From: a phage
Sequence record: PZ386974.1
Strand: one strand, 5' to 3'
DNA: 64,000 bases
The notes under the pieces were generated by a model, which saw only the letters and a program-made list of their open reading frames with translations, did no database searches and had not been told where the DNA came from. How positions within the stretch are numbered: position 1 is the first letter of the stretch; every line of letters begins with the position of its first letter. Shown here one piece after another: positions 2,318 through 59,466 of this stretch. Both the position numbers and the translations under genes were made by a program.

Positions 2318-4006
2318 TTATGAAACAGTCATTACAGTAAATCGTCCAACTTTGCTCATCCGAAGATGTTGTCCATAACGTTGAGGGTCATGGTCTCGAT
2401 GAGAGATAATGAACACATTAGTATTTTGTAAACTTCCAAGAATGGTATCTATAGCCTTAACAGCCTCAGAATCGACAGCCCCGTCAAAAACCTCATCAAG
2501 AATCAGAGTGTTGATTTTAACACCAGAGACCTTTTCAGCAATATCTCTCCATGTAAACAACAATGCGATATCGATACGTGCCTTTTCACCTTGACTAAAT
2601 GAAGCATAACTAAAATCTTCACGACCACGTGATTTTATAGATTCATTGAATTCTTCGTCAATAGAAAACACGTAATCAGCTTCCATGATTTTAAGATAAT
2701 GGTTAATCTGCTTGTTGAACAGAGGCACATATTTTTTAATGATAGCACCTTTAATACCAGAATCTTTTAACATATCTGTGATAATACCACGATGGTATTT
2801 TTCAAGAACGATATCCGATTTTGTTTTAATGATTTTATCAAGTTCTTTTTGAAGCAAAGCTATCTCATCGGCATGGTCGATAAATTCTGCTGAGGCTTGC
2901 TCTATTGCAGCTTTAACTTTCTTAGCTTTATCAATAGTGGCAATCATTGCTTGTTTCTTGGTATGAATATCAGATGCAAGGTCCTGTTTAGTCTTAACAT
3001 TAGCTCTATATTCGTCCACTAGGACACTCAGATTATCTCTGTGACATGTAAGTTGCTCGAATGAGTGATTACATTCGTGAAGCTTATCGGTAATCTTAGA
3101 GACAATAGGATCACCCTGGTGCAACTGTGATGCACAAGTAGGACATGTGCCACCATCATGATACATCTTAATAACTTTGTTGTATGAGTCGATTTTAGAT
3201 TTAATCAAGAATGCTTCTTGTCCTATCTTGTTGAATGCCTCAGTAGGGTCTTCATCAAGAACGATATTAAGTAGTCGCTCATTAGCTTCTTCGATTTCTG
3301 CTTTTAATGAACGAGCTTCTTTGGCTAGGTCGTCATACATATTCTGTAGACGCGCTACATTATCACCAGATAATTTCTTTTGACGTTCGATATTCTCGTT
3401 ATAAATCTTAATTTGTTGGATAACACCATCTTTCTTGGCATCGAGAACTTGTCCCTGGGAATTAAGTTCTCGAACTTGAGACTTATTGATTTTATCCATT
3501 TCGGCGAGTGTGCCGACTTCTAAAAGGTCTTCGACAAGTTTTCTACGAGCAGGGGTGCTAAGAGCCATGAAAGGGGTATACCCTGCCGTCCCAAGCACAA
3601 CGATCTGTTTAAAAGACGCGTATGACATTCCGATGCTACGTTCAAATTCTTCTTGGAAGTCACGACTGCTGGCAGATTCATCGAGACGAACACCGTCAAC
3701 GGAGATTTCGAAAATATTGGGCTTTTGGCCACGTCTAATGAAGTATTTTTTATCATCGAATTCCATCCAAAGCTCAACTAAGAGCTCTTTCTTGTTCGTG
3801 CTATTAATGATTTGTCCTTTCTTAACATCACGAAATGGTTTACCGAAAAGTCCGAAAGTAATGGCTTCTAACATCGTAGATTTACCACCGCCATTTTTAC
3901 CAGTGATTAATGTCTTTTGGACTTTATCTAATTGGATATCAATAGGATTCCCACCTACCGACATGATGTTTTGATAACGAACACGATTTAATTTAAATGA
4001 TTTCAT
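2318..4006 (-). CDS. 46: Recombination endonuclease subunit gp46 (Rad50/SbcC-like ATPase)
   Basis: 562 aa; N-terminal P-loop GKNGGGKST, long coiled-coil, CxxC hook-like motif (GGTCPTCAS), C-terminal LILDEVFD Walker B; T4 gp46 size. Confidence 0.92.
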   Translation of the reverse strand: MKSFKLNRVRYQNIMSVGGNPIDIQLDKVQKTLITGKNGGGKSTMLEAITFGLFGKPFRDVKKGQIINSTNKKELLVELWMEFDDKKYFIRRGQKPNIFEISVDGVRLDESASSRDFQEEFERSIGMSYASFKQIVVLGTAGYTPFMALSTPARRKLVEDLLEVGTLAEMDKINKSQVRELNSQGQVLDAKKDGVIQQIKIYNENIERQKKLSGDNVARLQNMYDDLAKEARSLKAEIEEANERLLNIVLDEDPTEAFNKIGQEAFLIKSKIDSYNKVIKMYHDGGTCPTCASQLHQGDPIVSKITDKLHECNHSFEQLTCHRDNLSVLVDEYRANVKTKQDLASDIHTKKQAMIATIDKAKKVKAAIEQASAEFIDHADEIALLQKELDKIIKTKSDIVLEKYHRGIITDMLKDSGIKGAIIKKYVPLFNKQINHYLKIMEADYVFSIDEEFNESIKSRGREDFSYASFSQGEKARIDIALLFTWRDIAEKVSGVKINTLILDEVFDGAVDSEAVKAIDTILGSLQNTNVFIISHRDHDPQRYGQHLRMSKVGRFTVMTVS

Positions 4007-4251: not shown

Positions 4252-4486
4252 CCTCAATACACGCTTCAGCCATTTTAAGAATAGAGCCAGGAGTATCGTT
4301 GTCCATTATATTAAAGCTAAATTCAATAGCCCAGTCGGTGCAGACATGAACTGCTTTAACTTCATTGCCTTCAACGCGTAATGGCTCAATCCAATACTTG
4401 ATAGTGTTCTCGAATCCATCATCATCTTTAACGTCAATTTCAACTTCAAGGTTGAGTCCAGCATTGTTAAATTCATCTAAAGTCAT
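4229..4486 (-). CDS. Hypothetical protein (46.2 position)
   Basis: 85 aa acidic ORF with ATG start, overlaps neighbours. Confidence 0.5.
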   Translation of the reverse strand: MTLDEFNNAGLNLEVEIDVKDDDGFENTIKYWIEPLRVEGNEVKAVHVCTDWAIEFSFNIMDNDTPGSILKMAEACIEDAYNDED

Positions 4487-5502
4487 TGTGTTGCCTCGAT
4501 ATAAAGTTCGTTGGAATATTTGACCAGCGCTTCTCTGTCTTCGTCTGAGATATCTGGAATCGCGTCAATATATTCTTTAATGATATCTTGAAGTGATTTA
4601 ATCTCTATTTCCTGGTCGTCATCAGATTCAACACTGTTATCAACTTTAGAAACCATACGAAGAGAGTGAACTACTTTTTCAAGTTCAGATTCAAACTTAG
4701 TCAACTCTGAATCGATTTCTGATACTATAACACGTACGGCTAGATTAGTATAATCAGAATAATTGATTTTGCCTTTAAACGGATAAGTGATTCGTCGATG
4801 CCATGTTGTTTCATTAGGAATAAATTCCATACGTTCAACATCAGTGTCAAATACCCAGAATCCTCGAGGGTCGTTCTCATCGCCTGCAGTAAGGGTCCAT
4901 GGTGTCCCAATATATTTGACGTTAGCAGCTTCAGAGATTGTGTGGAAGTGGCCGGACCAGACTTGTTTATAGGTCTTTAAGAAATCAGGTTCAAGCCCAT
5001 GAGACTTCATTCCTTTATAGAAATAAAAGCCATTCAGTTCCCAGTGCCCAACACAATACGCTGCGGAAGAAGTCTTGATGTGCTCTAAGATTTCACCTGT
5101 ATTTTCTTCACACATCCATGGAACGATATCAATCAGACATCCGTCAAAATCTACAGTAGTTGGATGTTCATAAATAGTAAAGTTTTCAAATTGAGTTAAC
5201 AATTCAGAAACAGTGTTAGGTGTTATTGTATTCTTAAACGCCATGTCATGGTTTCCTATCGTGACATGAACGTGAATGCCTGCTTTAGAAATCATATCAA
5301 CGATTTCACGATTGAATTCCATTGTACGATGTGTTATTGCTTTACGGACGTCAAACCAATCACCGTACTGAATCCAAGTTTTAATCCCGTGTTTCTTAGA
5401 GTATTCAATTGCTTGTCGAATACCATCACGTTGAATATCTTGAACCCATGGGTCGTCTTGTTTGACTCCGATATGGAAGTCGCCTAAGTGCAAAATTTTC
5501 AT
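4483..5502 (-). CDS. 47: Recombination endonuclease subunit gp47 (Mre11/SbcD-like phosphoesterase)
   Basis: 339 aa; calcineurin-like phosphoesterase motifs (MKILHLGDFHIG, GNHD, GHWE); T4 gp47 length. Confidence 0.92.
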   Translation of the reverse strand: MKILHLGDFHIGVKQDDPWVQDIQRDGIRQAIEYSKKHGIKTWIQYGDWFDVRKAITHRTMEFNREIVDMISKAGIHVHVTIGNHDMAFKNTITPNTVSELLTQFENFTIYEHPTTVDFDGCLIDIVPWMCEENTGEILEHIKTSSAAYCVGHWELNGFYFYKGMKSHGLEPDFLKTYKQVWSGHFHTISEAANVKYIGTPWTLTAGDENDPRGFWVFDTDVERMEFIPNETTWHRRITYPFKGKINYSDYTNLAVRVIVSEIDSELTKFESELEKVVHSLRMVSKVDNSVESDDDQEIEIKSLQDIIKEYIDAIPDISDEDREALVKYSNELYIEATQ

Positions 5503-13857: not shown

Positions 13858-14158
13858 AATAATCTCTTCCCATTTCCATATCAATTAATTCATTTATTGA
13901 AGGTTCATCATAACACGTTTCTTCGTCGTTGTAAAATGTTTCGACGTCTGGCTCGACCGTCTCCCATCGAGCCGAATACCACGGTTTAACCGCGGAGCTT
14001 ATTGAGCTCTTCATAATCAATCCAGGATTCTAGTCCGGATGGTAAAGCCGATTCAATTTCCCAAAGAAGCTCTTCAATTTTTTGAAGACGATCTAATTCT
14101 TCAACAGGAATAGTAACCATTGATGGAGCTCTTGCTGCACTAATATCGTAAATCATAT

Positions 14159-20537: not shown

Positions 20538-20819
20538 TTACTTATCGCACTTAGCAACATAATTAGGCATATCACAGAATACGGAGCGAGTAACTACTCG
20601 ACCCTTTGACCATGCTTCAGTTGCTTGTCCGGCAGTGCTATTAATATAGCTTGATTTGATATTCTCAATACCCTGAGAATGTGATGCATTTACCGAACCG
20701 TTGGAAGGCCCAGAAGACTGGTTACCACCAGCTCCTGCACTACCGCTGGCTGCACCCGTGGTAGCACCAACAGAGAACGCCATCATTACTGCGAATAAAC
20801 CAATTACTAATTTTTTCAT
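20538..20819 (-). CDS. Hypothetical secreted Gly/Ser-rich protein with signal peptide
   Basis: N-terminal MKKLVIGLFAVMMAFSVGA, then a G/S/A-rich low-complexity region and two C-terminal cysteines. Confidence 0.5.
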   Translation of the reverse strand: MKKLVIGLFAVMMAFSVGATTGAASGSAGAGGNQSSGPSNGSVNASHSQGIENIKSSYINSTAGQATEAWSKGRVVTRSVFCDMPNYVAKCDK

Positions 20820-28033: not shown

Positions 28034-28342
28034 TCAATTAGAAAATAAATTTATCCAAGTTTTTTCTTTAATCAAAAATGGGTCGGAATTAAACGCCATT
28101 AAACTTTGAGTGATTAATCCCTTAAATGGCCCATCAATAAATTCCATTTTGAAATGTGGAATACTAGTCATTAACCGTGCATTAGGAGCAGTACAAAAAA
28201 CCTGCTGCCCTGCGAACGGACCTTTAGTCAAACGGTATCGTTTAGGTTTAAAATGGTAAATCTCGTAATTTTCTACAAGGGCCCTTTTATTGCATACTGG
28301 GCTGTTATAACAATGCTCAAAAACTTCAATAGTGGTCATCAT
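28034..28342 (-). CDS. Hypothetical protein
   Basis: Track ORF 28034..28405; ATG at 28342 overlaps the upstream stop (ATGA coupling). Confidence 0.45.
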   Translation of the reverse strand: MMTTIEVFEHCYNSPVCNKRALVENYEIYHFKPKRYRLTKGPFAGQQVFCTAPNARLMTSIPHFKMEFIDGPFKGLITQSLMAFNSDPFLIKEKTWINLFSN

Positions 28343-28878
28343 TGCATTCCAATCACAAAAAATTGAGGACGAGCAATACCACCGATGCAATATTTGCTTT
28401 TGCAACAGTGTTGGACTGTTTTAATATGGATGTCGTAAATCTTATCCATATCAGGAGCTTTAATAGGCTCGTCAATTATGTACAGAATACGAGAAAGCGT
28501 TAATCCACGGAATTTATGTCCTTCATTACCAATAAAACTACGGACAGAATCAGTAAATAAACGGAATCGAATATCATCGCTAGAATATCGAGAAAATTCT
28601 TTTTCAATGTTGCCGGCAGAAATTTTAGCGTAAGCTGAAGTATTAGAAAGAACAATAACTGTTCCGCCATCATACAACCAATTAGCAGCAAAATTAGTCA
28701 CAGCAATTGATTTACCGGATTGTCTGCCGCCGTCTAAACGAAGTGTACAGTACTGCTTGAGTACGTCTTCAAATGGTGGGGCATAACCGTTCTTACAAAT
28801 TTCTTCTACTCTAGCATCAGAATGGTGTGTAAAAGCATTCATCAGGGATAGATAAGGTCCGGTTAAAAATGTTCTCAT
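28339..28878 (-). CDS. Hypothetical P-loop protein
   Basis: 179 aa; GGRQSGKS Walker A-like and LYIIDEP Walker B-like motifs. Confidence 0.5.
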   Translation of the reverse strand: MRTFLTGPYLSLMNAFTHHSDARVEEICKNGYAPPFEDVLKQYCTLRLDGGRQSGKSIAVTNFAANWLYDGGTVIVLSNTSAYAKISAGNIEKEFSRYSSDDIRFRLFTDSVRSFIGNEGHKFRGLTLSRILYIIDEPIKAPDMDKIYDIHIKTVQHCCKSKYCIGGIARPQFFVIGMQ

Positions 28879-29051
28879 TTAGTTTCTCTTAAGGTTGGGG
28901 CCGTTCCGTGGCACATGTTAGGTCCTTCGACTCGCTATGTAAACCCATTACCGCACTTGGGCTCGACCTTATTACAGGTTGGAAAAGGTACATCACTCAG
29001 AGGACTCGACGTTCATGAGGAGAGGTTGCGTTTCCCTTTATTAGGCAAGAA
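28879..29051. other. GC-rich non-coding island with repeated (G)CTCGAC motifs
   Basis: About 170 nt with no convincing ORF, visibly more GC-rich than flanking DNA; motifs gggctcgacc, ggactcgacg, tcgactcgc. Confidence 0.4.
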
Positions 29052-29381
29052 TTATACTCTAGGCTTTTGAGCTTGTTTGGTATTGGATTCCCATGCAGCT
29101 TTGGTAATTTTGTTAGCGGCATAACCAAAGGCATTAGATAGAACACCTTTAGAGTTGAATACATCCAATCCAATAAGTACACCGGCTGTGTTAAATTTAG
29201 GAGCAAAGTACGCATTAGTTTTAGAAAGAGCTTTTTTCAATTCAGGGTCTTGAACCAAACCATCAAAAACGCCTTTACTATTTACTTTATATGTTACTTT
29301 GGGATTTTTACCTTCTTCGATAGCAGCTTTCTGTTCCGCAGATAATGTAACTTCAGTGATAAACTCTTGATACGTTTTCAT
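29052..29381 (-). CDS. Internal-protein-like protein with capsid targeting sequence (MKTYQEFITE)
   Basis: N-terminal decapeptide matches the T4 IP capsid-targeting consensus MKTYQEFIAE; 109 aa, basic. Confidence 0.6.
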   Translation of the reverse strand: MKTYQEFITEVTLSAEQKAAIEEGKNPKVTYKVNSKGVFDGLVQDPELKKALSKTNAYFAPKFNTAGVLIGLDVFNSKGVLSNAFGYAANKITKAAWESNTKQAQKPRV

Positions 29382-39054: not shown

Positions 39055-39076
39055 GCCCCAACCTTTCGGAAGGGGC
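39055..39076 (-). terminator. Terminator hairpin GCCCC-uu-CC-GAAA-GG-uu-GGGGC followed by a U8 run
   Basis: Closes the tRNA/small-RNA transcription unit on the minus strand. Confidence 0.6.
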
Positions 39077-39388
39077 TATGCCTTGCGGCAACCTTGTCGG
39101 GGTTCCACCTGCTAAGGCAAGTGTTTGTACGAAACGCCGGGATTCGAACCCGGTTATTAAGTAGTTGACGCTACTCAATATTTTTAAAAGGCCATATCTC
39201 GACCATATCCGAACGTTCCGTCAAAAACGCTACTCGGCTTACGGCAAAGATATTTCCTCGAATCGATAATTCGGTGCGCCGTTTCTGCTGTGATGTAAGG
39301 GGATATTAACAAATCGTAAAGATTTATTAAGACCAGTCCTTACTCAGGGAGCATCAGTCCGACGACTTACCGGTAGCGACCCGGCTTC
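39077..39388 (-). ncRNA. Candidate stable small RNA region (T4 rnaC/rnaD-like position), including a tRNA-like T-arm
   Basis: About 310 nt without ORFs between the tRNA-side ORF and the terminator; canonical CCGGG-TTCGAAT-CCCGG T-arm at about 39137-39153 but no full cloverleaf. Confidence 0.3.
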
Positions 39389-39733
39389 TTATTTTGACAT
39401 ATCATCAATTTGCTCTCGACGCCGACGCCATAGATTAATCACTTCATTAACACATTCGGCGTTTGATATATGACGGCAATAATATAATGATTCGCGTTTC
39501 TGGAACCGATGTTGCAATGGGATTTCGTTTAAAAGGTCTTTACGGTCAAAGTATTCAAAACTAGTTAACCCAGAACGGTTTTTAATGAACTTCCAATGAC
39601 CGAATTCATTTTGAACATAGATGTAATCTGCATGTTGGTATAACAAATTAATCAATCGGTCTGAAATAACTGTATCATGTTCGTTAAAATAAAACGTTAA
39701 ATCATGAACTACCAGATAAATATTGCCTTTCAT
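39389..39733 (-). CDS. Hypothetical protein adjacent to the tRNA genes
   Basis: Track ORF 39389..39781 begins at TTG inside tRNA-Arg; ATG at 39733 (MKGNIYLVVHDL...) has an upstream Shine-Dalgarno. Confidence 0.45.
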   Translation of the reverse strand: MKGNIYLVVHDLTFYFNEHDTVISDRLINLLYQHADYIYVQNEFGHWKFIKNRSGLTSFEYFDRKDLLNEIPLQHRFQKRESLYYCRHISNAECVNEVINLWRRRREQIDDMSK

Positions 39734-39751: not shown

Positions 39752-39828
39752 TGGTCGAGACAGAAGGATTCTAACCTTCAACCTACGGATTAGAAGTCCG
39801 TTGCTCGATACAATTGAGCTATGCCTCG
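39752..39828 (-). tRNA. tRNA-Arg (anticodon UCU), CCA encoded
   Basis: Hand-folded cloverleaf: acceptor CGAGGCA/TGTCTCG, D-stem GCTC/GAGC, anticodon stem ACGGA/TCCGT with loop CUUCUAA, T-arm GAAGG-TTAGAAT-CCTTC. Confidence 0.75.
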
Positions 39829-39834
39829 AATATA

Positions 39835-39908
39835 TGACCCAGACCAGATTCGAACTGGTAACCTTTCCCTTATGAGGGGACTGCTGCTAACCATTGAGCT
39901 ACAGGGCC
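39835..39908 (-). tRNA. tRNA with CAU anticodon (Ile2-type as in T4, or Met)
   Basis: T-arm ACCAG-TTCGAAT-CTGGT, anticodon loop CUCAUAA, acceptor GGCCCTG/CTGGGTC with one mismatch; D-arm folds imperfectly by hand. Confidence 0.55.
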
Positions 39909-48411: not shown

Positions 48412-50385
48412 ATGGCAAACACTCCTGTAAATTATCAATTAACCCGAACAGCGAATGCTATTCCCGAGATTTTTATCGGGGGCACATTTGCCGAAATCAA
48501 ACAGAACATTATCGAATGGCTTAATGGGCAGAATGAATTTCTTGATTATGATTTTGAAGGTTCACGCTTAAACGTATTGTGCGACCTTTTAGCATATAAC
48601 ACTCTTTACATCCAACAGTTCAGTAATAGTGCAGTGTATGAAAGTTTTATGCGTACTGCAAACTTGCGTAGTTCTGTTGTACAAGCGGCTCAAGATAACG
48701 GATATCTGCCTTCATCTAAATCAGCAGCACAAACAGAAATTATGCTCACATGTACGGATGCATTAAATAGAAACTATATCACCATTCCACGTGGCACTCG
48801 TTTCTTAGCATACGCTAAAGATACTTCTGTTAACCCATATAACTTTGTTTCTACTGAAGATGTCATTGTAGTTAAAGACAAAAATAACCAATATTTTCCA
48901 CGTCTTCGATTAGCTCAAGGACGTATTGTTCGCACTGAATTAACATTTGATAGATTAAAACCTATCATTATTCGTGATAAGAATATTGACCGTAATTTGG
49001 TTAAGTTGTATGTTGACGGAGCAGAATGGATTAACTGGACTCGTAAGTCGATGGTTCACGCTGGTTCTACGTCAACAATCTATTATATGCGTGAAACAGT
49101 TGATGGGAACACCGAATTTTATTTTGGTGAAGGCGAAATCTCTATTAACACATCAGAAGGTGCGTTAACATCTAACTATATTGGTGGCCTTAAACCTGTT
49201 CAGGGTTCTAAAATCGTAATTGAGTATATTTCTACTAATGGCGCAGATGCTAACGGTGCTGTAGGATTTTCTTATGCTGATACATTAGCTAATATCACGG
49301 TAATCGATATTAACGAGAACCCTAGCAATAACCCAGACTTTGTCGGGGCCGATGGTGGTGGTGACCCTGAAGATATTGAACGTATCCGCGAATTAGGCAC
49401 AATTAAACGCGAAACTCAACAACGTTGTGTAACCGCTTCCGACTATGACACATTCGTCTCTGAGCGGTTTGGTTCTATTATTCAAGCGGTTCAGACGTTC
49501 ACTGATTCTACTAAACCCGGTTATGCATTTATTGCTGCTAAGCCTAAATCTGGATTGTATTTGACTTCTGTCCAACGCGATGATATCAAAAACTATTTAA
49601 ATGATTATAACTTAGGGACTATTACACCTGTTGTTATTTCGCCTGATTATTTGTTTATCAAAATGAATATCAAGGTTACATACGCGTTGAATAAACTCCA
49701 AGAATCAGAACAATATCTTGAAGGGCAGATTATTAATAAAATAGACCGATATTATATCGAAGATGTAGAAATTTTTAACTCATCGTTTGCAAAATCTAAA
49801 ATGCTAACTTATGTCGATGATGCAGATATTTCTATTATTGGTTCTTCAGCTACTATTCAAATGGTTCGCGAAGTACAAAACTTCTATAAAACGCCTGAGG
49901 CCGGTATTAAATACAATAATCAGATTAAAGATAGATCGATGGAATCTAATATATTCTCGTTTGATTCGCACAGACCTAATCCAGAAAATGCAAACGAAAC
50001 TATTAAATACGGTGTTCGCATAGTATCTTCTGACCGTAATGACCGTGGCATAGGTCAAGTTATTATTGGTCCATTTGCAGACGGTGATGTTGTTGAAAAC
50101 GAAAATATACAACCTTATACAGGTAATGATTTTAATAAACTTACTGTTACTGACGGACGAAACAAATACTATTCAATTGGTGAAGTGAATTATCCTGCCG
50201 ATTCGATTTATTGGAACATTGCTAAAATTGACCTCACTTCAGACCGTTTTGAAGTTCAAACAATTGAACTTTATTCAGACCCTGCAGATGATATTATTTT
50301 TACAAAGGACGGTTCTTTAATCGTATTCGAAAATGACTTACGTCCTCAGTACTTAACTATAGATTTGGAGCCTATTTCACAATGA
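48412..50385 (+). CDS. 6: Baseplate wedge protein gp6
   Basis: Track ORF 48355..50385; ATG at 48412 (MANTPVNYQL...) gives about 657 aa, the T4 gp6 size class. Confidence 0.9.
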   Translation: MANTPVNYQLTRTANAIPEIFIGGTFAEIKQNIIEWLNGQNEFLDYDFEGSRLNVLCDLLAYNTLYIQQFSNSAVYESFMRTANLRSSVVQAAQDNGYLPSSKSAAQTEIMLTCTDALNRNYITIPRGTRFLAYAKDTSVNPYNFVSTEDVIVVKDKNNQYFPRLRLAQGRIVRTELTFDRLKPIIIRDKNIDRNLVKLYVDGAEWINWTRKSMVHAGSTSTIYYMRETVDGNTEFYFGEGEISINTSEGALTSNYIGGLKPVQGSKIVIEYISTNGADANGAVGFSYADTLANITVIDINENPSNNPDFVGADGGGDPEDIERIRELGTIKRETQQRCVTASDYDTFVSERFGSIIQAVQTFTDSTKPGYAFIAAKPKSGLYLTSVQRDDIKNYLNDYNLGTITPVVISPDYLFIKMNIKVTYALNKLQESEQYLEGQIINKIDRYYIEDVEIFNSSFAKSKMLTYVDDADISIIGSSATIQMVREVQNFYKTPEAGIKYNNQIKDRSMESNIFSFDSHRPNPENANETIKYGVRIVSSDRNDRGIGQVIIGPFADGDVVENENIQPYTGNDFNKLTVTDGRNKYYSIGEVNYPADSIYWNIAKIDLTSDRFEVQTIELYSDPADDIIFTKDGSLIVFENDLRPQYLTIDLEPISQ

Positions 50386-53300
50386 CAGTAAAAGCGCCAG
50401 CAGTCACAAGTCTCAGAATATCCAAGTTGTCCGCTAACCAAGTTCAAATACGCTGGGATGACGTTGGTGCTAATTTCTACTATTTCGTAGAAATCGCTGA
50501 GACTAAAACGGCAGACGGGGAAATAATTCCACCTGCCAGCTACAGATGGATAAATTTAGGATATACTCCTAATAGCAACTGGTTCGAAAATAGCTTAGAC
50601 CCATTAACTTCTTATATTATTCGTGTATCAACTGCCGCCGAAGGCTTCGAGAGATCTGATTGGGTATATACTGAAATATTTGAATCATTTCAGACTAACG
50701 CTTATACATTTCAACATATGATTGAAATGCAATTGGCTAACACTTTTATTAGAGAAAAATTTACAAATAACAACATGGCTTATGTCGATTTTAATAACGA
50801 CACTATAATGGCAGCTCTAATGAATGAATCGTTCCAATTTAGCCCTGCTTATGCAGATATTTCATCTATTAAAAATTTCATTATTGGCGAAAATGAGTAT
50901 CATGAAATTCAAGGTTCGATTCAACAGGTGTGTCATGATATAAACCGTGTTTATTTGATGGAATCCGAAGGAATTCTTTATTTGTTTGAACGGTATCAGC
51001 CTGTGGTTAAAGTCTCTAATGATAAGGGACAAACCTGGAAATCGGTTAAATTGTTTAATGACCGTGTAGGGTACCCTGTATCAAGAACAGTGTATTACCA
51101 GACAGATTACACCACGTATGTTCTTGGGTACGATAAATTATTTTACGGCCGTAAATCAACAGACGTTCGTTGGTCTGCTGATGATGTGAGATTTAGTTCT
51201 CAAGATATAACATTTGCTAAAATTGGTGACCAGTTAAATTTAGGATATGATGTAGAAATATTTGGTAACTATGCATCATTACCTGCTAACGTATCACGTA
51301 TTGCAGAAGCTATCGTTTGCAATGACGATTATGTATACGTTGCTGCTCGAGATAAAGTTCGTTTTATTAAAACTAGTAATGCCCCTATTGATTCAGACCC
51401 GTTATCTCCGACATATTCCGAACGTTTGTTTGAACAAGAAACATTTAACATCACAGGTAACCCTAAAGCAGTTTGCTATAAAATGGATTCTGTCGGTGGT
51501 AAAATATTTGCACTGATTATTGGTGAAGTTGTTAATCTTAATGACGACCCGAGGACCACTCCTATTGTCGATTCTGCTGATAAGGGTGTTTACGTTCTAG
51601 ACCATGATGCTGGCACATTTAAACGTGTGTTTGGTAATACTGAAGAAGAACGCCGTCGTATTGAACCTGGGTACACCAGTATGTCTACTGATGGTGTTGA
51701 GTTATCTATTTCATCTAGTAATTTTAAATTTTTAGAATCAGATATTGTTGATGACCCAAAAACACAAATCAAGTACGGTTTAATCGGTGCTGTTAAATAT
51801 GAGTATCCTCGCGAATGGTTGGCTGATAAACATTATCATATGATGGCATTTATTTCAACTGAAGACTCTCAATGGGAATCGTTCACTCCTCAACCGATGG
51901 AATACTATGCTGAGCCATTCTTTAGTTATTCTAGAAAGTCTGGTACTCGTTGTTGGATTAATAACTCAGACAAGGCCGTTGTAATTTATTCTGATTTACT
52001 TTACACTAAGGTTATTGAGAATCATCCACTTAGTTCTTCAGACCGTGAAGTTCATGAATATTGGAAGGACGGTGACTGTACAATAGTGATGCCTAACGTA
52101 GATTTCACCGGATTTAAAAAATATGCATCAGGCATGATTTTCTATAAATCATCAGGTGAGATTATTTCTTATTATGATTTTAGTTATCGTGTTAGAGATA
52201 ATGTTTCTATAATTTGGAAGCCTACTAATATATTCTTAACAGCATCGTTACAAAACCAAGAAAAAGATACCACATGGACTCCTGTAGAAGAGAATGGTAT
52301 TGCAGACCCAGATTTACGACCATTGCTCACTACAATGATGCCGGAGTCTTATCTTTTAGATAATTCAAACTTCGAAGCATTCTGTGAGGCTTATATTCAG
52401 TATCTTTCTGACGGCTATGGGACCCATTATAACAACCTTTTAAATCTTATTAAAAATCAATACCCGCGCGAAGAACATGCGTGGGAATATTTGTGGTCTG
52501 AGATTTATAAACGAAACATTTACTTAAACGCCGAAAAACGCGATTTAGTGTCTCGTTTCTTTGAATCAAGAAGTTATGACTTCTATTCAACTAAAGGAAC
52601 TGAAGCATCATATAAATTCTTGTTTAAAGTGCTTTATAACGAAGATGTTGAAATTGAAATTGAATCTAGTTCCGGGACCGAATATGATATCATCATTGAA
52701 TCTGATTCGTTGACAGAAGATTTGGTCGGACAAACCATATACACCGCGACAGGACGTTGTAATGTGACGTATATCGAGAGAAGTTACTCTAAAGGTAAAT
52801 TACAATGGACTGTAACAATTCACAACCTCTTAGGACGTTTAATCCAAGGACAGGAAGTTAAAGCTGAAAGACTCCCTGGTTTTGAAGGTGAAATTGTTCG
52901 TGGTATTAAAGGTAAAGAGCTTTCTCAGAACAACATCGATTACATAAATCGTGGTAGAGCATACTACGTAATGAAGATTAAATCTAAACTTCCATCATCT
53001 CGTTGGAAATCAGACGTATTACGTTTTGTTCATCCGGTTGGATTTGGATTTATCGCAATTACCCTTCTCACAATGTTTATTAACACCGGATTAACACTTA
53101 AACATGTTGAAACCGTTATTAATAAATACAAAAACTATAAGTGGGATTCTGGATTACCGACTAAATATGCAGACCGAGTGGCTAAATTAGACCCACAAGG
53201 AAATGTTGAGTTTGACCCTATTACAGGTAAAGCGATATATGAAATAGGCCCTATGGCTGGTCAAGATTATCCATTACCCGAAGATTATAACGCTGAAAAC

Positions 53301-53480
53301 AATAACTCCATATTTCAAGGTCAACTTCCATCGGAACGACGTAAACTGATGAGCCCATTATTTGATGCGTCCGGAACAACATTCTCTAAATTTAGAGATT
53401 TGGTTGAACAGCGGTTAATCGATAATGTAGGAAATCCAAGAGACCCCGTGAATCCACCACAGGTTAAATTAGATGAATGA
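50382..53480 (+). CDS. 7: Baseplate wedge initiator gp7
   Basis: 1032 aa, identical in length to T4 gp7; synteny. Confidence 0.92.
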   Translation: MTVKAPAVTSLRISKLSANQVQIRWDDVGANFYYFVEIAETKTADGEIIPPASYRWINLGYTPNSNWFENSLDPLTSYIIRVSTAAEGFERSDWVYTEIFESFQTNAYTFQHMIEMQLANTFIREKFTNNNMAYVDFNNDTIMAALMNESFQFSPAYADISSIKNFIIGENEYHEIQGSIQQVCHDINRVYLMESEGILYLFERYQPVVKVSNDKGQTWKSVKLFNDRVGYPVSRTVYYQTDYTTYVLGYDKLFYGRKSTDVRWSADDVRFSSQDITFAKIGDQLNLGYDVEIFGNYASLPANVSRIAEAIVCNDDYVYVAARDKVRFIKTSNAPIDSDPLSPTYSERLFEQETFNITGNPKAVCYKMDSVGGKIFALIIGEVVNLNDDPRTTPIVDSADKGVYVLDHDAGTFKRVFGNTEEERRRIEPGYTSMSTDGVELSISSSNFKFLESDIVDDPKTQIKYGLIGAVKYEYPREWLADKHYHMMAFISTEDSQWESFTPQPMEYYAEPFFSYSRKSGTRCWINNSDKAVVIYSDLLYTKVIENHPLSSSDREVHEYWKDGDCTIVMPNVDFTGFKKYASGMIFYKSSGEIISYYDFSYRVRDNVSIIWKPTNIFLTASLQNQEKDTTWTPVEENGIADPDLRPLLTTMMPESYLLDNSNFEAFCEAYIQYLSDGYGTHYNNLLNLIKNQYPREEHAWEYLWSEIYKRNIYLNAEKRDLVSRFFESRSYDFYSTKGTEASYKFLFKVLYNEDVEIEIESSSGTEYDIIIESDSLTEDLVGQTIYTATGRCNVTYIERSYSKGKLQWTVTIHNLLGRLIQGQEVKAERLPGFEGEIVRGIKGKELSQNNIDYINRGRAYYVMKIKSKLPSSRWKSDVLRFVHPVGFGFIAITLLTMFINTGLTLKHVETVINKYKNYKWDSGLPTKYADRVAKLDPQGNVEFDPITGKAIYEIGPMAGQDYPLPEDYNAENNNSIFQGQLPSERRKLMSPLFDASGTTFSKFRDLVEQRLIDNVGNPRDPVNPPQVKLDE

Positions 53481-57886: not shown

Positions 57887-59466
57887 GTAATAACAATACA
57901 TACCAACACGTTTCAAATGAATCTATTTACGTTGAATTCGACCCTACTGGGTCGAATTTTCCAGATACAGTCACTAATGTCCAAGCCGCATTAGCTGCTA
58001 TTTCTCCTTCAGGTGTTAACGGCGTCCCGGAAGCAACAACTACTACACCTGGAATTATTCAAATAGCCACTCCACAAGAAGTTATTGATGGATTAGATAA
58101 TAGTAAAGCTGTTACTCCGGCATCACTGAATGCTCGTCTACAATATCCTAATGCAACCGAAACTCAATATGGTTTAACTCGTTATGCTACTGAAGATGAA
58201 GCAGTAGCCGGAGCTATTGACGATGCATCAATTACTCCGCTTAAATTGAATCAAAAAATAGACAATGTATTCCAGACAAAAGTATCAACAGAAGCAACAA
58301 ATGGTGTAATTAAAATTTCAACTTCTGCTGCGGCATTAGCTGGTTCTGACGATACAACGGCAATGACCCCGTTAAAAACACAACAATTAGCAATTAAACT
58401 TATTTCACAAATTGCTCCAAATAATAGTGACGCCACCGAATCTATTACAGGTGTTGTTCGTTTAGCTACAGTTGCACAAGCACAACAAGGCACCCTGCGT
58501 GAAGGCTATGCAATTTCACCTTATACCTTTATGAATTCAGTAGCATCAGAAACTAATAAAGGTGTCGTTAAACTAGGGACACAGACTGAAGTAAATAGTA
58601 ACAACTCTTCAGTTGTAGTGACCGGCGCAACATTAAACGGGCGTGGGGCTACAACTTCTTTACGTGGAGTTGTTCGTTTAACTACACAAGCGGGTAGCCA
58701 ATCAGGTGGTGATGGTTCTTCTGCCCTTGCTTGGAATGCTGATGTTATCCACCAACGAGGCGGTCAAACTATTAATGGCACGCTTCGCATTAATAATACG
58801 TTGACGGTTGGTTCTGGTGGTGCTAATATAACGGGTAATGTCAATATGACTGGTGGTTATATTCAAGGCAATCGTATTGTGACTCAAAATGAATTAGACC
58901 GAATTCTTCCAGTTGGCGCTATTACAATGTGGGCTGCAGATAGTTTGCCGAGTTCGGACTGGCGTTTCTGTCACGGTGGGACCGTTTCTGCTTCAGAATG
59001 TCCGGTATATGCTTCCAGAATTGGGACACGATATGGTGGTAGTTCTTCTAACCCAGGCTTGCCCGATATGCGTGGATTATTTGTTCGCGGCTCAGGTCGT
59101 GGTAACCATTTAACTAACCCTAATGTTAATGGTAATGACCAATTCGGTAAGCCTCGTCTGGCGGTAGGTTGTACCGGTGGATATGTTGGTGAGGTGCAAA
59201 AACAACAGATGTCATATCATAAGCATGCTGGCGGTTTTGGTGAACATGACGATGCAGGAGCATTCGGTAATACTCGTCGTTCAAACTTTGTTGGTACTCG
59301 TAAAGGACTTGACTGGGATAACCGTTCGTATTTTACTAACGATGGATATGAAATTGATCCAGCGTCTCAGCGTAACTCTAAATATACCCTGAATCGTCCA
59401 GAATTAATTGGAAATGAAACTCGCCCATGGAATATTTCTTTAAACTATATCATTAAGGTAAAATAA
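57883..59466 (+). CDS. 12: Short tail fiber protein gp12
   Basis: 527 aa, identical in length to T4 gp12; Gly/Thr/Ala-rich fibrous repeats. Confidence 0.92.

What the first reader, a model, noticed from the sequence alone, without database searches (positions are those of the whole stretch)
28879..29051. GC-rich non-coding island with repeated CTCGAC motifs between the IP cluster and the upstream P-loop gene
About 170 nt without a credible ORF stands out by visibly higher GC than the surrounding AT-rich genome and contains three copies of a (G)CTCGAC(C/G) motif. A smaller GC-rich hairpin with the same motif (GGCTCGA...TCGAGCC) lies near 13949-13972. This could be a structured RNA, a protein-binding site array, or a remnant of horizontally acquired DNA marking a cassette junction.
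Basis: seen in the sequence. Interest (0 to 1): 0.5.

Follow-up and report, generated by a model that had tools for sequence, protein, structure and literature searches.

The report
Unannotated pseudoknotted RNA of large coliphages
The GC-rich gap is the gene for a roughly 150-base folded RNA, strongly conserved in T4-type and unrelated large E. coli phages but matching no described RNA family, and its function is still unknown.

Summary
The window is an RB69-like T4-type phage. The 173-nt gap between an internal-protein-like ORF (29052-29381, -) and vs.8 (28339-28878, -) is non-coding and GC-rich: 0.48 against 0.375, in the top 0.5% of windows. The "CTCGAC repeat" is not meaningful, and the hairpin at 13949 is unrelated.

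The gap holds a conserved structured RNA at 28897-29044, read on the minus strand. About 1000 phage records carry it. A 45-nt core is near-identical in T4-likes, Vequintavirinae, Phapecoctavirus and unclassified phage contigs. It was not found in bacterial genomes and matches no Rfam family.

The same architecture recurs in at least 8 sequence types:
- hairpin P1;
- a three-way junction abutting P1 (P2, P2a ACCU-GUAAUA-AGGU, P2b);
- a pseudoknot between the P1 loop and the 3' tail.

Compensatory changes support P1, P2 and the pseudoknot.

Outside T4-likes the element sits in tRNA gene arrays. It can have its own promoter or terminator, and some close relatives lack it. In T4 it is hidden under an over-extended vs.8 ORF annotation.

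Best reading: an autonomous, probably trans-acting small RNA that docks a conserved host factor. The ribozyme and cis-regulator readings remain open.

The parts
28897..29044 (-). Whole RNA element as conserved in RB69-type T4-like phages (about 148 nt), from CUAAUAAAGG to GGCCCC
   Evidence: 30 distinct homologues align end to end (A3). It is 79-88% identical to copies in other genera, whose flanking genes are only 46-62% identical.
28941..28985 (-). 45-nt invariant core (P2 + P2a + P2b three-way junction) shared with Vequintavirinae, Phapecoctavirus and unclassified phages
   Evidence: Covariance model R1 scores 72.6 bits, E = 5e-20, and this is the only copy in the window. Members elsewhere score 54-67 bits (one divergent member, L175, 38.9); chance pattern hits score 23 bits or less.
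29035..29039 (-). P1, 5' strand (AAAGG)
   Evidence: Pairs with 28984-28988. Compensatory GC to CG (5 sequences) and to AU (1) at A3 10:57. Other types have quite different but complementary sequences.
28984..28988 (-). P1, 3' strand (CCUUU), directly abutting P2
   Evidence: The P1 3' end lies 4-5 nt before ACCU in all 13 representatives.
28990..29026 (-). Inner irregular hairpin of the P1 domain (P1a/P1b, CUCA/UGAG, apical GAAC...GUC)
   Evidence: A3 pair 19:55 is CG in 19 and AU in 10. A paired C/G deletion occurs in three sequences. T4, Vequintavirus and L051 have different hairpins here. The Phapecoctavirus and L136 types have none.
29028..29031 (-). Pseudoknot, 5' strand (A)CGC, in the internal loop of the P1 domain
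   Evidence: Pairs with 28932-28935. A3 16:112 is CG 20 / AU 6 / GC 4; 17:111 is GC 19 / CG 10 / AU 1.
28932..28935 (-). Pseudoknot, 3' strand GCG(A)
   Evidence: Equivalent loop-tail pairings occur in all other types. Duplex-versus-shuffle test combined over 8 types gives p = 0.002.
28980..28983 (-). P2, 5' strand (UCCA)
   Evidence: The closing pair X:Y is AU 18, UA 5, UG 5, CG 4 in 32 distinct cores, never unpaired.
28944..28947 (-). P2, 3' strand (UGGG)
28966..28979 (-). P2a hairpin ACCU-GUAAUA-AGGU. The stem is invariant; loop consensus is GUA-N-N-A (AUAAUA in L051).
   Evidence: Stem invariant in the 32 cores of the first alignment. Loop variants GUAAAA, GUAACA, GUAGCA and AUAAUA were found later.
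28963..28965 (-). Junction strand CGA (CAA in two lineages)
28953..28962 (-). P2b: 2-3 bp helix (GC...GC) capped by a variable 5-6 nt loop carrying 1-nt indels
   Evidence: The only freely varying stretch of the core.
28948..28952 (-). Junction strand GGUAA (GAUAA in PM2)
28913..28940 (-). P4 hairpin specific to T4-likes (ACAU...AUGU) with an A-N-GGA loop motif. It encloses the pseudoknot 3' strand.
   Evidence: 93% of cells paired but no compensatory change. This is a weakly supported helix.
28900..28912 (-). P5 hairpin specific to T4-likes, GCCA-CGGAA-CGGC, again with an A-N-GGA loop
   Evidence: One compensatory swap, GGCA/UGCC, is seen in PM2 in alignment A2; in A3 PM2 is aligned differently and shows as unpaired cells.
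28339..28878 (-). Downstream gene vs.8 (phrog_1488, P-loop-like). It is not part of the element.
   Evidence: An in-frame UAA directly precedes its AUG.
29052..29381 (-). Upstream internal-protein-like ORF (RB69ORF123c homologue, phrog_3966). It is not part of the element.

Best explanation
28897-29044 (minus strand) encodes a member of a previously undescribed family of phage structured RNAs.

Shown:
- The fold is a hairpin domain P1 stacked directly on a three-way junction (P2, P2a, P2b).
- The junction and loop nucleotides of that three-way junction are almost invariant.
- A pseudoknot between the P1 loop and the 3' tail locks the fold.
- The core is shared by T4-type phages of Enterobacterales, Vequintavirinae, Phapecoctavirus and unclassified phages.
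- It is not tied to any protein gene.
- Outside T4-likes it lies in tRNA gene arrays, in the same orientation as the tRNAs.

Inferred:
- It is an autonomous RNA gene rather than a leader of vs.8.
- It is transcribed early with its neighbours and is probably cut out as a stable small RNA, as T4 RNA C and RNA D are.
- Its invariant core acts in trans by docking a macromolecule conserved among enterobacterial hosts. The most plausible candidates are a component of the tRNA/translation apparatus or an RNA-directed defence or decay enzyme.
- Its role would be accessory host takeover or counter-defence.

Confidence by step: real, selected structured RNA about 0.9; autonomous or trans-acting rather than cis-regulatory about 0.6; host-factor decoy or modulator about 0.35.
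For: Conservation: 1030 phage records match. The 40-nt core is 97-100% identical in Vequintavirinae. The core is also in Phapecoctavirus and in unclassified contigs L051, L022, L136, L146, L197 and L175. Identity between genera is 79-88% where flanking genes are 46-62%.

Structure: RNAalifold found the long-range helix with 5-6 double compensations. On 30 sequences, 96.5% of cells are paired. The covariation score is 0.154 against 0.050 for shuffles (0 of 500) and about 0.02 for slid controls. Double-sided changes occur in P1, the pseudoknot (two pairs), P1a and P2. The core P2 closing pair shows four pair types and no break in 32 cores. Thirteen representatives of 8 types share the same helix order with unrelated stem sequences, and P1 is always 4-5 nt from the core. 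The pseudoknot duplex test gives a combined p = 0.002.

Autonomy:
- It has the same orientation as adjacent tRNAs in every non-T4 locus.
- A near-consensus sigma-70 promoter lies upstream and a second one downstream in Vequintavirus L031.
- An intrinsic terminator follows immediately in L051.
- The downstream gene differs in Marfavirus.
- vs.8 homologues exist only in T4-likes.
- The element is present in some Phapecoctaviruses and absent from others.

No bacterial copy was found: 42 pattern hits in 185,579 genomes all lack the second half of the core, and the six of them that were scored with the covariance model gave at most 23 bits.
Against: - No transcript data were available, so ends, stability and abundance are all inferred.
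- Single-sequence folding is no better than shuffles on either strand. The pseudoknot cannot be modelled there.
- The strand cannot be fixed from pairs alone: 28 G.U cells against 17 A.C cells. It rests on context.
- Many aligned sequences are close relatives, which inflates the shuffle test.
- The pseudoknot is only 3 bp in the T4 type, shows no variation there, and overlaps a possible P4 helix.
- P4 and P5 lack compensatory support.
- No binding partner or target is identified.
- Near-identity of the core across phage families could partly reflect recent transfer rather than constraint.
Confidence: 0.6

Rival explanations
1. It is a self-cleaving or processing ribozyme. It would cut polycistronic transcripts, separating tRNAs, or separating the upstream internal-protein/denV message from vs.8.
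For: It is small and pseudoknotted, with invariant junction nucleotides and variable stems. Its genetic context varies with no gene association. It lies next to phage tRNAs, as the HDV-like theta ribozymes do (PMC10879173). Its helix order A-B-C-C'-A'-D-D'-B' is that of the HDV nested double pseudoknot.
Against: No ribozyme family of Rfam 15 matches, even at E <= 10. The HDV-specific parts are missing. There is no P3/L3 in the L120 and L136 types. There is no conserved C in the strand equivalent to J4/2, and that linker is absent altogether in L120 and L136. The conserved part corresponds to the dispensable P4 of HDV-like ribozymes. No candidate cleavage site could be named.
Confidence: 0.15
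2. It is a cis-acting leader. It would be either a riboswitch-like or protein-binding element controlling translation or stability of the downstream vs.8 mRNA, or a 3' protective structure for the upstream message.
For: In almost all T4-likes it sits directly 5' of vs.8 and starts at the stop codon of the upstream gene. T4-likes add two hairpins (P4, P5) just before the ribosome-binding site. In the T4 type the pseudoknot 3' strand overlaps a possible P4 helix, as a switching sequence would. P4 and P5 loops carry A-N-GGA motifs about 18 nt apart, which resembles CsrA sites (the CsrA consensus is from my own knowledge).
Against: The core occurs without vs.8 and without any consistent downstream gene. 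In Vequintavirus a promoter intervenes. In L051 a terminator follows. In Phapecoctavirus the next gene is a tRNA. In Marfavirus the downstream gene is an internal protein. The spacer and Shine-Dalgarno region downstream of P5 are not conserved, and no conserved pairing with them was seen.
Confidence: 0.12
3. It acts at the DNA level. It would be a promoter, a protein-binding site array, a recombination or cassette-junction sequence such as the PeSL cassettes of T4-type phages, or a decaying fragment of foreign DNA.
For: It lies in a hyperplastic region. There is a sigma-70-like match, TTTACA-17-TAACAT, at 28943-28915 on the minus strand. The element moves between phage lineages.
Against: The promoter-like hexamers are not conserved in other copies, and the number of such matches equals chance (7 against 6.5). 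Changes are compensatory across paired positions up to 98 nt apart, which DNA sites or decay do not explain. The CTCGAC copies are not conserved. Nothing similar exists in E. coli genomes.
Confidence: 0.04
4. It is coding. It would be either a small ORF or, as in the T4 reference annotation, the N-terminal 40 codons of a longer Vs.8 (219 aa).
For: T4 NC_000866 annotates vs.8 as 64253-64912, which runs through the element. X04567 lists several alternative starts. The window has a 35-aa ORF at 28889-28996 (-) in the corresponding frame.
Against: In the window a UAA stands directly in frame before the vs.8 AUG. 1-nt indels in the P2b loop and elsewhere shift the frame between close relatives. With the 5-nt loop variant, the invariant GGUAA becomes an in-frame stop. 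Every frame of the aligned sequences holds 1-7 stops. Variation follows base pairing, not codon position.
Confidence: 0.02

Closest known systems
T4 RNA C and RNA D (species 1 and 2 stable RNAs, rnaC/rnaD)
   Same: Both are small, non-coding, phage-encoded and of unknown role, and both are linked to tRNA arrays. The window carries both: rnaC homologue at 39128-39266 (-) and rnaD homologue at 39273-39392 (-). An rnaD-like hairpin lies beside the element in Phapecoctavirus L120. Uzan & Miller 2010 (PMC3014915) state that their roles are unknown and that no trans-acting RNA or riboswitch has been characterised in T4.
   Different: There is no sequence similarity. The fold is different: no tRNA-like 3' part, and instead a three-way junction plus pseudoknot. 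In T4-likes the element lies about 10 kb from the tRNA cluster, between protein genes.
HDV-like / theta ribozymes next to phage tRNAs (PMC10879173)
   Same: Both are phage-borne, adjacent to tRNA genes, and have the nested double-pseudoknot helix order.
   Different: There is no P3/L3 in two types, no P1.1 and no conserved catalytic C. Conservation sits in the domain equivalent to the dispensable P4. Rfam HDV models are silent.
GOLLD and ROOL large ornate RNAs
   Same: Both are structured RNAs of unknown function carried by phages and prophages, often beside tRNA genes. This is from my own knowledge; the papers are listed.
   Different: Those RNAs are 500-800 nt and form multimeric cages, and they occur in Firmicutes, rumen and lake phages. 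This element is 90-150 nt, occurs in virulent phages of Enterobacterales, and has no Rfam match.
H-type pseudoknots with a structure embedded in loop 3 (e.g. preQ1-II riboswitch aptamer)
   Same: In both, a hairpin loop pairs with a 3' tail, and an extra helical element is inserted between the hairpin and the tail. The comparison is from my own knowledge.
   Different: Here the insert is a complete three-way junction that carries nearly all the conserved bases. The element has no fixed position upstream of one gene class, and there is no sequence or model match.
PeSL (promoter-early stem-loop) cassettes of T4-type hyperplastic regions
   Same: Both are short non-coding modules between accessory genes in the plastic part of T4-type genomes that can be exchanged (own knowledge; mosaicism).
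   Different: There is no conserved early promoter. The structure is complex and covarying rather than a simple stem-loop. The element is also present in unrelated phage families.

Membership tests
Any Rfam 15 family (4227 models) | Score at or near the family's gathering threshold | tested here: not met
   Whole window at gathering thresholds: only two tRNAs. 28700-29250 at E <= 10: only noise of 23 bits or less, off target. Homologous loci L051, L022, L031 and L001 at E <= 1: nothing on the element.
tRNA / tRNA-like / tmRNA | Cloverleaf detected by ARAGORN or Rfam tRNA; a 3' CCA-type end | tested here: not met
   ARAGORN finds tRNAs only at 39752-39908 in the window, and beside but never on the element in other loci. 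The P2a loop is 6 nt, not a 7-nt anticodon or T loop.
T4 rnaC / rnaD | Sequence homology to species 1 or 2 RNA | tested here: not met
   blastn of T4 rnaC and rnaD against the window hits only 39128-39266 and 39273-39392.
HDV-like (incl. theta) ribozymes | Nested double pseudoknot helix order P1-P2-P3-P1'-P4-P2' | tested here: met
   The order A B C C' A' D D' B' is seen in types that have an inner hairpin.
HDV-like (incl. theta) ribozymes | P3 with L3 and P1.1, and a catalytic C in J4/2 | tested here: not met
   The L120 and L136 types have no P3. The J4/2-equivalent linker is 0 nt there and has no C in L051.
Riboswitch | Fixed position in the 5' leader of a consistent class of genes, with an expression platform | tested here: not met
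   What lies downstream varies: vs.8, an internal protein, a promoter, a terminator or a tRNA.
Riboswitch | Binding of a small ligand | not testable with these tools
   Needs in-line probing or ITC.
[quoted passage not shown] | Conserved AGNNA plus UGNNA pentanucleotides | tested here: not met
   UGUAA in P2a fits UGNNA in most copies, but it is UAUAA in L051 and UGUAG in L173 and L175. No conserved AGNNA exists.
PeSL cassette | Conserved early sigma-70 promoter followed by a stem-loop | tested here: not met
   The promoter-like match at 28943-28915 is 9/12 and not conserved in homologues.
CsrB-like CsrA-sequestering RNA (3' extension of T4-likes only) | Several A-N-GGA motifs presented in hairpin loops | tested here: inconclusive
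   There are two such motifs, in the P4 and P5 loops, conserved in 29 of 30 RB69-type copies. Only two sites exist, they are absent from the non-T4 families, and binding was not tested.
Protein-coding gene / N-terminal extension of Vs.8 | Open frame kept across relatives, with codon-like substitution | tested here: not met
   Frame-shifting 1-nt indels, stops in all frames, and UAA before the vs.8 AUG.

The most novel reading that the evidence does not exclude
The element is the founding member of a new functional class of phage RNA. It would be a compact pseudoknot/three-way-junction RNA passed between unrelated virulent coliphages as an accessory gene. It would work either as an RNA decoy or inhibitor of a conserved enterobacterial enzyme (for example a tRNA-directed or RNA-directed defence nuclease, or a decay or translation factor), or as a new self-cleaving ribozyme class. 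Either way it would give T4 its first functionally assignable trans-acting non-coding RNA.
Probability: 0.3. Interest if true: 0.9.

Novelty: categorically new. Interest (0 to 1): 0.75.

Why it matters
T4 is among the most thoroughly studied viruses. A 2010 review states that no riboswitch or trans-acting RNA had been functionally characterised in it, and that the roles of its two known small RNAs are unknown (PMC3014915).

This is a third RNA, and it has a more elaborate fold. It is conserved in about a thousand sequenced phages of several unrelated families that infect Enterobacterales, including many therapy candidates. It has been overlooked because the T4 reference covers it with an over-long ORF and other records leave it blank or call short hypothetical proteins.

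Three features together are the pattern expected of a host-takeover or counter-defence function:
- the core is near-invariant;
- the element transfers horizontally;
- close relatives differ in whether they carry it.

RNA-based examples of such functions are still very rare. The element is small, so it is directly testable by deletion, probing, pull-down and cleavage assays in a tractable system.

The broader category has precedents: small structured RNAs beside phage tRNA genes. I call it new because it failed every family membership test I could run, not because a new mechanism has been shown.

Tried and rejected
- Rfam at gathering and permissive thresholds, on the window and on four homologous loci: nothing.
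- Single-sequence folding on both strands: no excess stability.
- E. coli genomes: no similarity.
- Bacterial and archaeal genomes: 42 pattern hits, all chance.
- Relaxed pattern scans of viral contigs gave mostly chance hits, which I filtered with the covariance model.
I found no mention of an RNA here.
- RNAalifold's alternative pairing CC.UUU.CC/GGUAAnGG is rejected. It breaks in the KpF48 and L024 lineages, and my P1 and P2 explain the covariation at the same columns.
- I recalled resemblances to the twister P4 loop, the RNase P RNA stretch GUGCGGUAAG and the 16S 530 loop GCGGUAAU. They are 8-10 nt matches, at or close to the chance level given the number of stable RNAs compared, in different structural contexts, so I did not pursue them.
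- tRNA-elbow double T-loop idea: tested against the published signature and not met.
- HDV-like fold: the helix order matches but the defining parts do not.
- vs.8 as a protein partner: it is restricted to T4-likes. Pfam finds nothing for the neighbours.
- Salmonella phage Munch, the nearest relative of the L136 array, lacks the element in the homologous 5 kb.

Full report
**Where we are.** The window is an RB69-like (Mosigvirus) T4-type phage. A 551-nt query around the finding is 97.5-99.5% identical to the best-matching RB69-like (Mosigvirus) records, including RB69 itself. All genes here run on the minus strand: e lysozyme, an IP-like gene, denV, three IP-like genes, the gap, vs.8, then vs.7-like genes. 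The finding is the gap between the last IP-like ORF (29052-29381; RB69ORF123c) and vs.8 (28339-28878).

**Observation check.**
- The gap is real and non-coding. A UAA stands directly in frame before the vs.8 AUG.
- GC is 0.48 against 0.375 (z = 2.8). Only 0.5% of 173-nt windows are as GC-rich, and it is the sixth highest peak. It is therefore clearly GC-rich but not unique. Two of the other peaks turned out to be the homologues of T4 rnaC and rnaD.
- The motif claim fails. There are two exact CTCGAC, not three. The hexamer is not enriched in the window (21 against 15.6). Only the middle copy is conserved elsewhere.
- The hairpin at 13949-13972 lies inside a 57-aa ORF and is unrelated.

**The decisive observation is conservation.**
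- The 173 nt match 1030 phage records.
- Across genera of T4-type phages of Enterobacterales, the 148-nt element is 79-88% identical to the window. These include Gaprivervirus, Kanagawavirus, Mosugukvirus, Moonvirus, Marfavirus and Klebsiella phages.
- In the same comparisons, the genes on either side are 46-62% identical by global alignment.
- A 40-45 nt core is 97-100% identical in Vequintavirinae, which are unrelated phages.
- Pattern scans plus a covariance model of the core found it in further places: Phapecoctavirus (L120, and phiWec188 L137), unclassified contigs (L051 of 96.5 kb, L022, L136, L146, L197, L175), and more T4-like and Vequintavirus variants.
- The model separates members (54-73 bits; one divergent member, L175, scores 38.9) from chance pattern hits (23 bits or less). 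It finds exactly one copy in the window, at 28941-28985 (-).
- A scan of one genome from each of 185,579 bacterial and archaeal species gave 42 hits to a 17-mer. That is within the roughly 140 I estimate would arise by chance. None has the second half of the core.
- E. coli genomes have nothing similar.

The element is therefore phage-specific. So far it is seen only in large virulent phages of Enterobacterales or in contigs resembling them.

**Structure.** Read on the minus strand, all copies share one architecture:
- (i) A hairpin domain, P1. In the window this is AAAGG/CCUUU.
- (ii) A short helix, P2, directly abutting P1. The spacing from the P1 3' end to the core is 4-5 nt in all 13 representatives.
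- (iii) Inside P2, the invariant hairpin P2a, ACCU-GUAAUA-AGGU.
- (iv) The junction strand CGA.
- (v) A 2-3 bp helix, P2b, capped by the only freely variable loop.
- (vi) The junction strand GGUAA.
- (vii) A pseudoknot between the loop, or 5' internal loop, of P1 and the tail following P2.

The stems differ completely between types while staying complementary:

| Type | P1 | Pseudoknot |
|---|---|---|
| Window (RB69 type) | AAAGG/CCUUU | CGC/GCG |
| T4 | GGGAA/UUCCC | CUG/CAG |
| Vequintavirus naswa | GGGG/CCCC | GCCAG/CUGGU |
| Vequintavirus L031 | GGAAC/GUUCC | not listed |
| Phapecoctavirus L120 | GAAUGU/ACAUUC | CGGAA/UUCCG |
| L136 | GUGUAU/AUACAC | CGGUUA/UAGCCG |
| L022 | AAACAC/GUGUUU | not listed |
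| L051 | not listed | AAACCA/UGGUUU |
| L125 | not listed | AAACCG/CGGUUU |

**Covariation within the RB69 type alone (30 distinct sequences).**
- RNAalifold independently proposed the long-range helix.
- A count on my full model gives 96.5% of cells paired.
- The covariation score is 0.154, against 0.050 for shuffles (0 of 500) and about 0.02 for all slid controls.
- Double-sided compensations occur in P1 (GC to CG or AU), in two pseudoknot pairs (three pair types each), in P1a (CG/AU) and in the P2 closing pair.
- On 32 distinct cores from all types, the P2 closing pair is AU 18, UA 5, UG 5 and CG 4, with no break.
- A duplex-energy test of loop against tail, compared with shuffled tails and combined over eight types, gives p = 0.002.

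**Caveats on the structure.**
- Sequences within a type are close relatives, which inflates the shuffle control.
- The T4-type pseudoknot is only 3 bp.
- The two 3' hairpins found only in T4-likes (P4, P5) are well paired but lack clear compensation.
- Single-sequence MFE is no better than random.

**Strand and expression.** Pair statistics alone do not fix the strand: 28 G.U cells against 17 A.C cells. Context does.
- The element points the same way as the neighbouring tRNA genes in every non-T4 locus.
- In Vequintavirus L031, a near-consensus extended -10 sigma-70 promoter (11/12) lies about 80 nt upstream of the core. A second promoter (10/12) follows the element.
- In L051, a strong intrinsic terminator follows the pseudoknot by about 10 nt.
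- In T4-likes it is co-oriented with the whole early gene block and begins at the stop codon of the upstream gene.

**It is not coding.** 1-nt indels, for example in the P2b loop, shift frames between close relatives. Every frame carries stops. With the 5-nt loop variant, the invariant GGUAA becomes an in-frame stop. The T4 reference record nevertheless annotates vs.8 as 219 aa (64253-64912). That runs through the element because the frame happens to be open in T4. The old record X04567 lists several alternative starts, including the 179-aa one. This annotation is probably why the element went unnoticed.

**It is not a vs.8 leader in general.**
- vs.8 homologues exist only in T4-likes.
- In Marfavirus the downstream gene is an internal protein.
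- In Vequintavirus a promoter intervenes.
- In L051 a terminator follows.
- In Phapecoctavirus it sits between tRNA-Thr and tRNA-Gly.
- Within Phapecoctavirus, phiWec188 has it and L120 (a metagenome contig that best matches Phapecoctavirus records) has it. phiWec179, ABPW7 and ZCKP1 lack the roughly 190-nt segment at the same place.
- In the window, vs.8 is 85% identical to T4. The element, however, has the 5' domain of the type found in Klebsiella and Enterobacter phages, and is only 66% identical to T4's.

So the element is exchanged as a module and behaves as an accessory gene.

**Mechanism.** The features are:
- an invariant three-way-junction core held by variable helices and a pseudoknot;
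- no fixed protein-gene partner;
- residence in tRNA arrays, beside an rnaD-like RNA in L120;
- restriction to phages of one host order;
- horizontal spread, with presence in some close relatives and absence in others.

These fit best an autonomous RNA released from polycistronic early or tRNA transcripts, which acts in trans by docking a conserved host macromolecule. I put about 0.9 on it being a genuine selected structured RNA. I put about 0.6 on it being autonomous or trans-acting, and about 0.35 on the decoy or modulator role.

The alternatives are:
- A self-cleaving or processing ribozyme (0.15). The helix order equals the HDV nested double pseudoknot, and theta ribozymes sit beside phage tRNAs (PMC10879173). 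But P3/L3, P1.1 and the catalytic C are missing, and no Rfam ribozyme model matches.
- A cis leader of vs.8 in T4-likes (0.12). P4 and P5 carry A-N-GGA loops before the ribosome-binding site, and the pseudoknot tail overlaps P4 in T4. This reading cannot explain the other contexts.
- DNA-level readings (0.04).
- Coding readings (0.02).

**Known relatives.** The element matches none of the 4227 Rfam families. It is not a tRNA or tmRNA. It is not homologous to T4 RNA C or RNA D. It fails the published signature of the tRNA-elbow double T-loop module. It lacks the promoter of PeSL cassettes. Nine literature searches and four papers read gave no description of it. The 2010 T4 review states that no riboswitch or trans-acting RNA had been characterised in T4. 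The held library is incomplete, so prior description elsewhere cannot be excluded.

**Verdict.** The GC excess reflects a conserved, pseudoknotted, previously unannotated RNA family that T4-type phages and several unrelated coliphage families share. Its function remains to be found. The experiments needed are simple and the system is tractable.

Noticed in passing
window 39128-39266 (-) and 39273-39392 (-): Homologues of T4 rnaC (99% identity) and rnaD (87%) lie next to the two tRNA genes. Rfam has no model for them. They account for two of the other GC-rich peaks in the window (39072-39244, 39256-39428).
   Followed up: partly
L040 (T4 NC_000866) 4254-4913, i.e. record 64253-64912: The T4 reference annotates vs.8 as 219 aa. 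The first 40 codons run through the RNA element (core at L040 4858-4902). Other T4 records and all RB69-type phages use the 178-179 aa start. The long form is probably an annotation artefact.
   Followed up: yes
L139, L140, L141 versus L120, L137 (Phapecoctavirus tRNA array): A segment of about 190 nt carrying the element is present between tRNA-Thr and the sequence ACACAACATTAAGAGC in some Phapecoctaviruses. It is precisely absent in others. This is an indel polymorphism inside a tRNA array.
   Followed up: partly
L120 minus strand, about 110-155 nt from the contig start, just upstream of tRNA-Thr: A hairpin plus tail, AGAAACAGGGUCGCUCCCUGUAAGUCGUCCAACUGA, is 86% identical to the 5' end of T4 rnaD, with compensatory stem changes. 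rnaD-like RNAs are therefore also shared between T4-likes and Phapecoctavirus.
   Followed up: partly
L031 about 60-85 and 185-210 (Vequintavirus type); also L033, L038, L117, L122, L134, L173: A direct repeat of about 22 nt, CCC(U/A)UAGAGGGCUUGA(U/A)AGUGC, flanks the element on both sides. In the naswa type, a similar hairpin plus CUUG follows the element. These could be processing sites or recombination scars.
   Followed up: no
window 28922-28927 and 28904-28908 (-); A3 columns 150-155 and 170-174: The P4 and P5 loops of T4-like copies both present A-N-GGA, about 18 nt apart. This resembles paired CsrA binding sites. The motifs are absent from the non-T4 families.
   Followed up: partly
L001 1364-1462 (-), L026 1714-1812, L112 2501-2599: Vequintavirus tRNA arrays contain a 98-99 nt tRNA-like gene that ARAGORN reports with a four-base anticodon (atcc) and GenBank calls 'tRNA-OTHER'.
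   Followed up: no
window vs.8 and element compared with T4 (L002): Mosaicism: vs.8 is 85% identical to T4, but the adjacent element is 66% identical because its 5' domain is of the Klebsiella/Enterobacter-phage type. This implies a recombination breakpoint inside or at the edge of the element.
   Followed up: partly
window 53189-53231 (-): This is the second-best covariance-model hit (12.5 bits, E = 0.24; UUUACCUGUAAUAGGGUCAAAC...). It lies inside a 1032-aa plus-strand ORF (50382-53480) and is most likely chance.
   Followed up: partly
window 58929-59101, 58615-58787, 20610-20782, 3503-3675: These are other 173-nt windows with GC of 0.50-0.53, higher than the finding. I did not examine them.
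   Followed up: no
L031 3115-3418 and L051 12784-13079: Group I introns (Rfam RF00028, 81 and 54 bits) lie in the Vequintavirus-like contig and in the unclassified phage contig that also carry the element.
   Followed up: no
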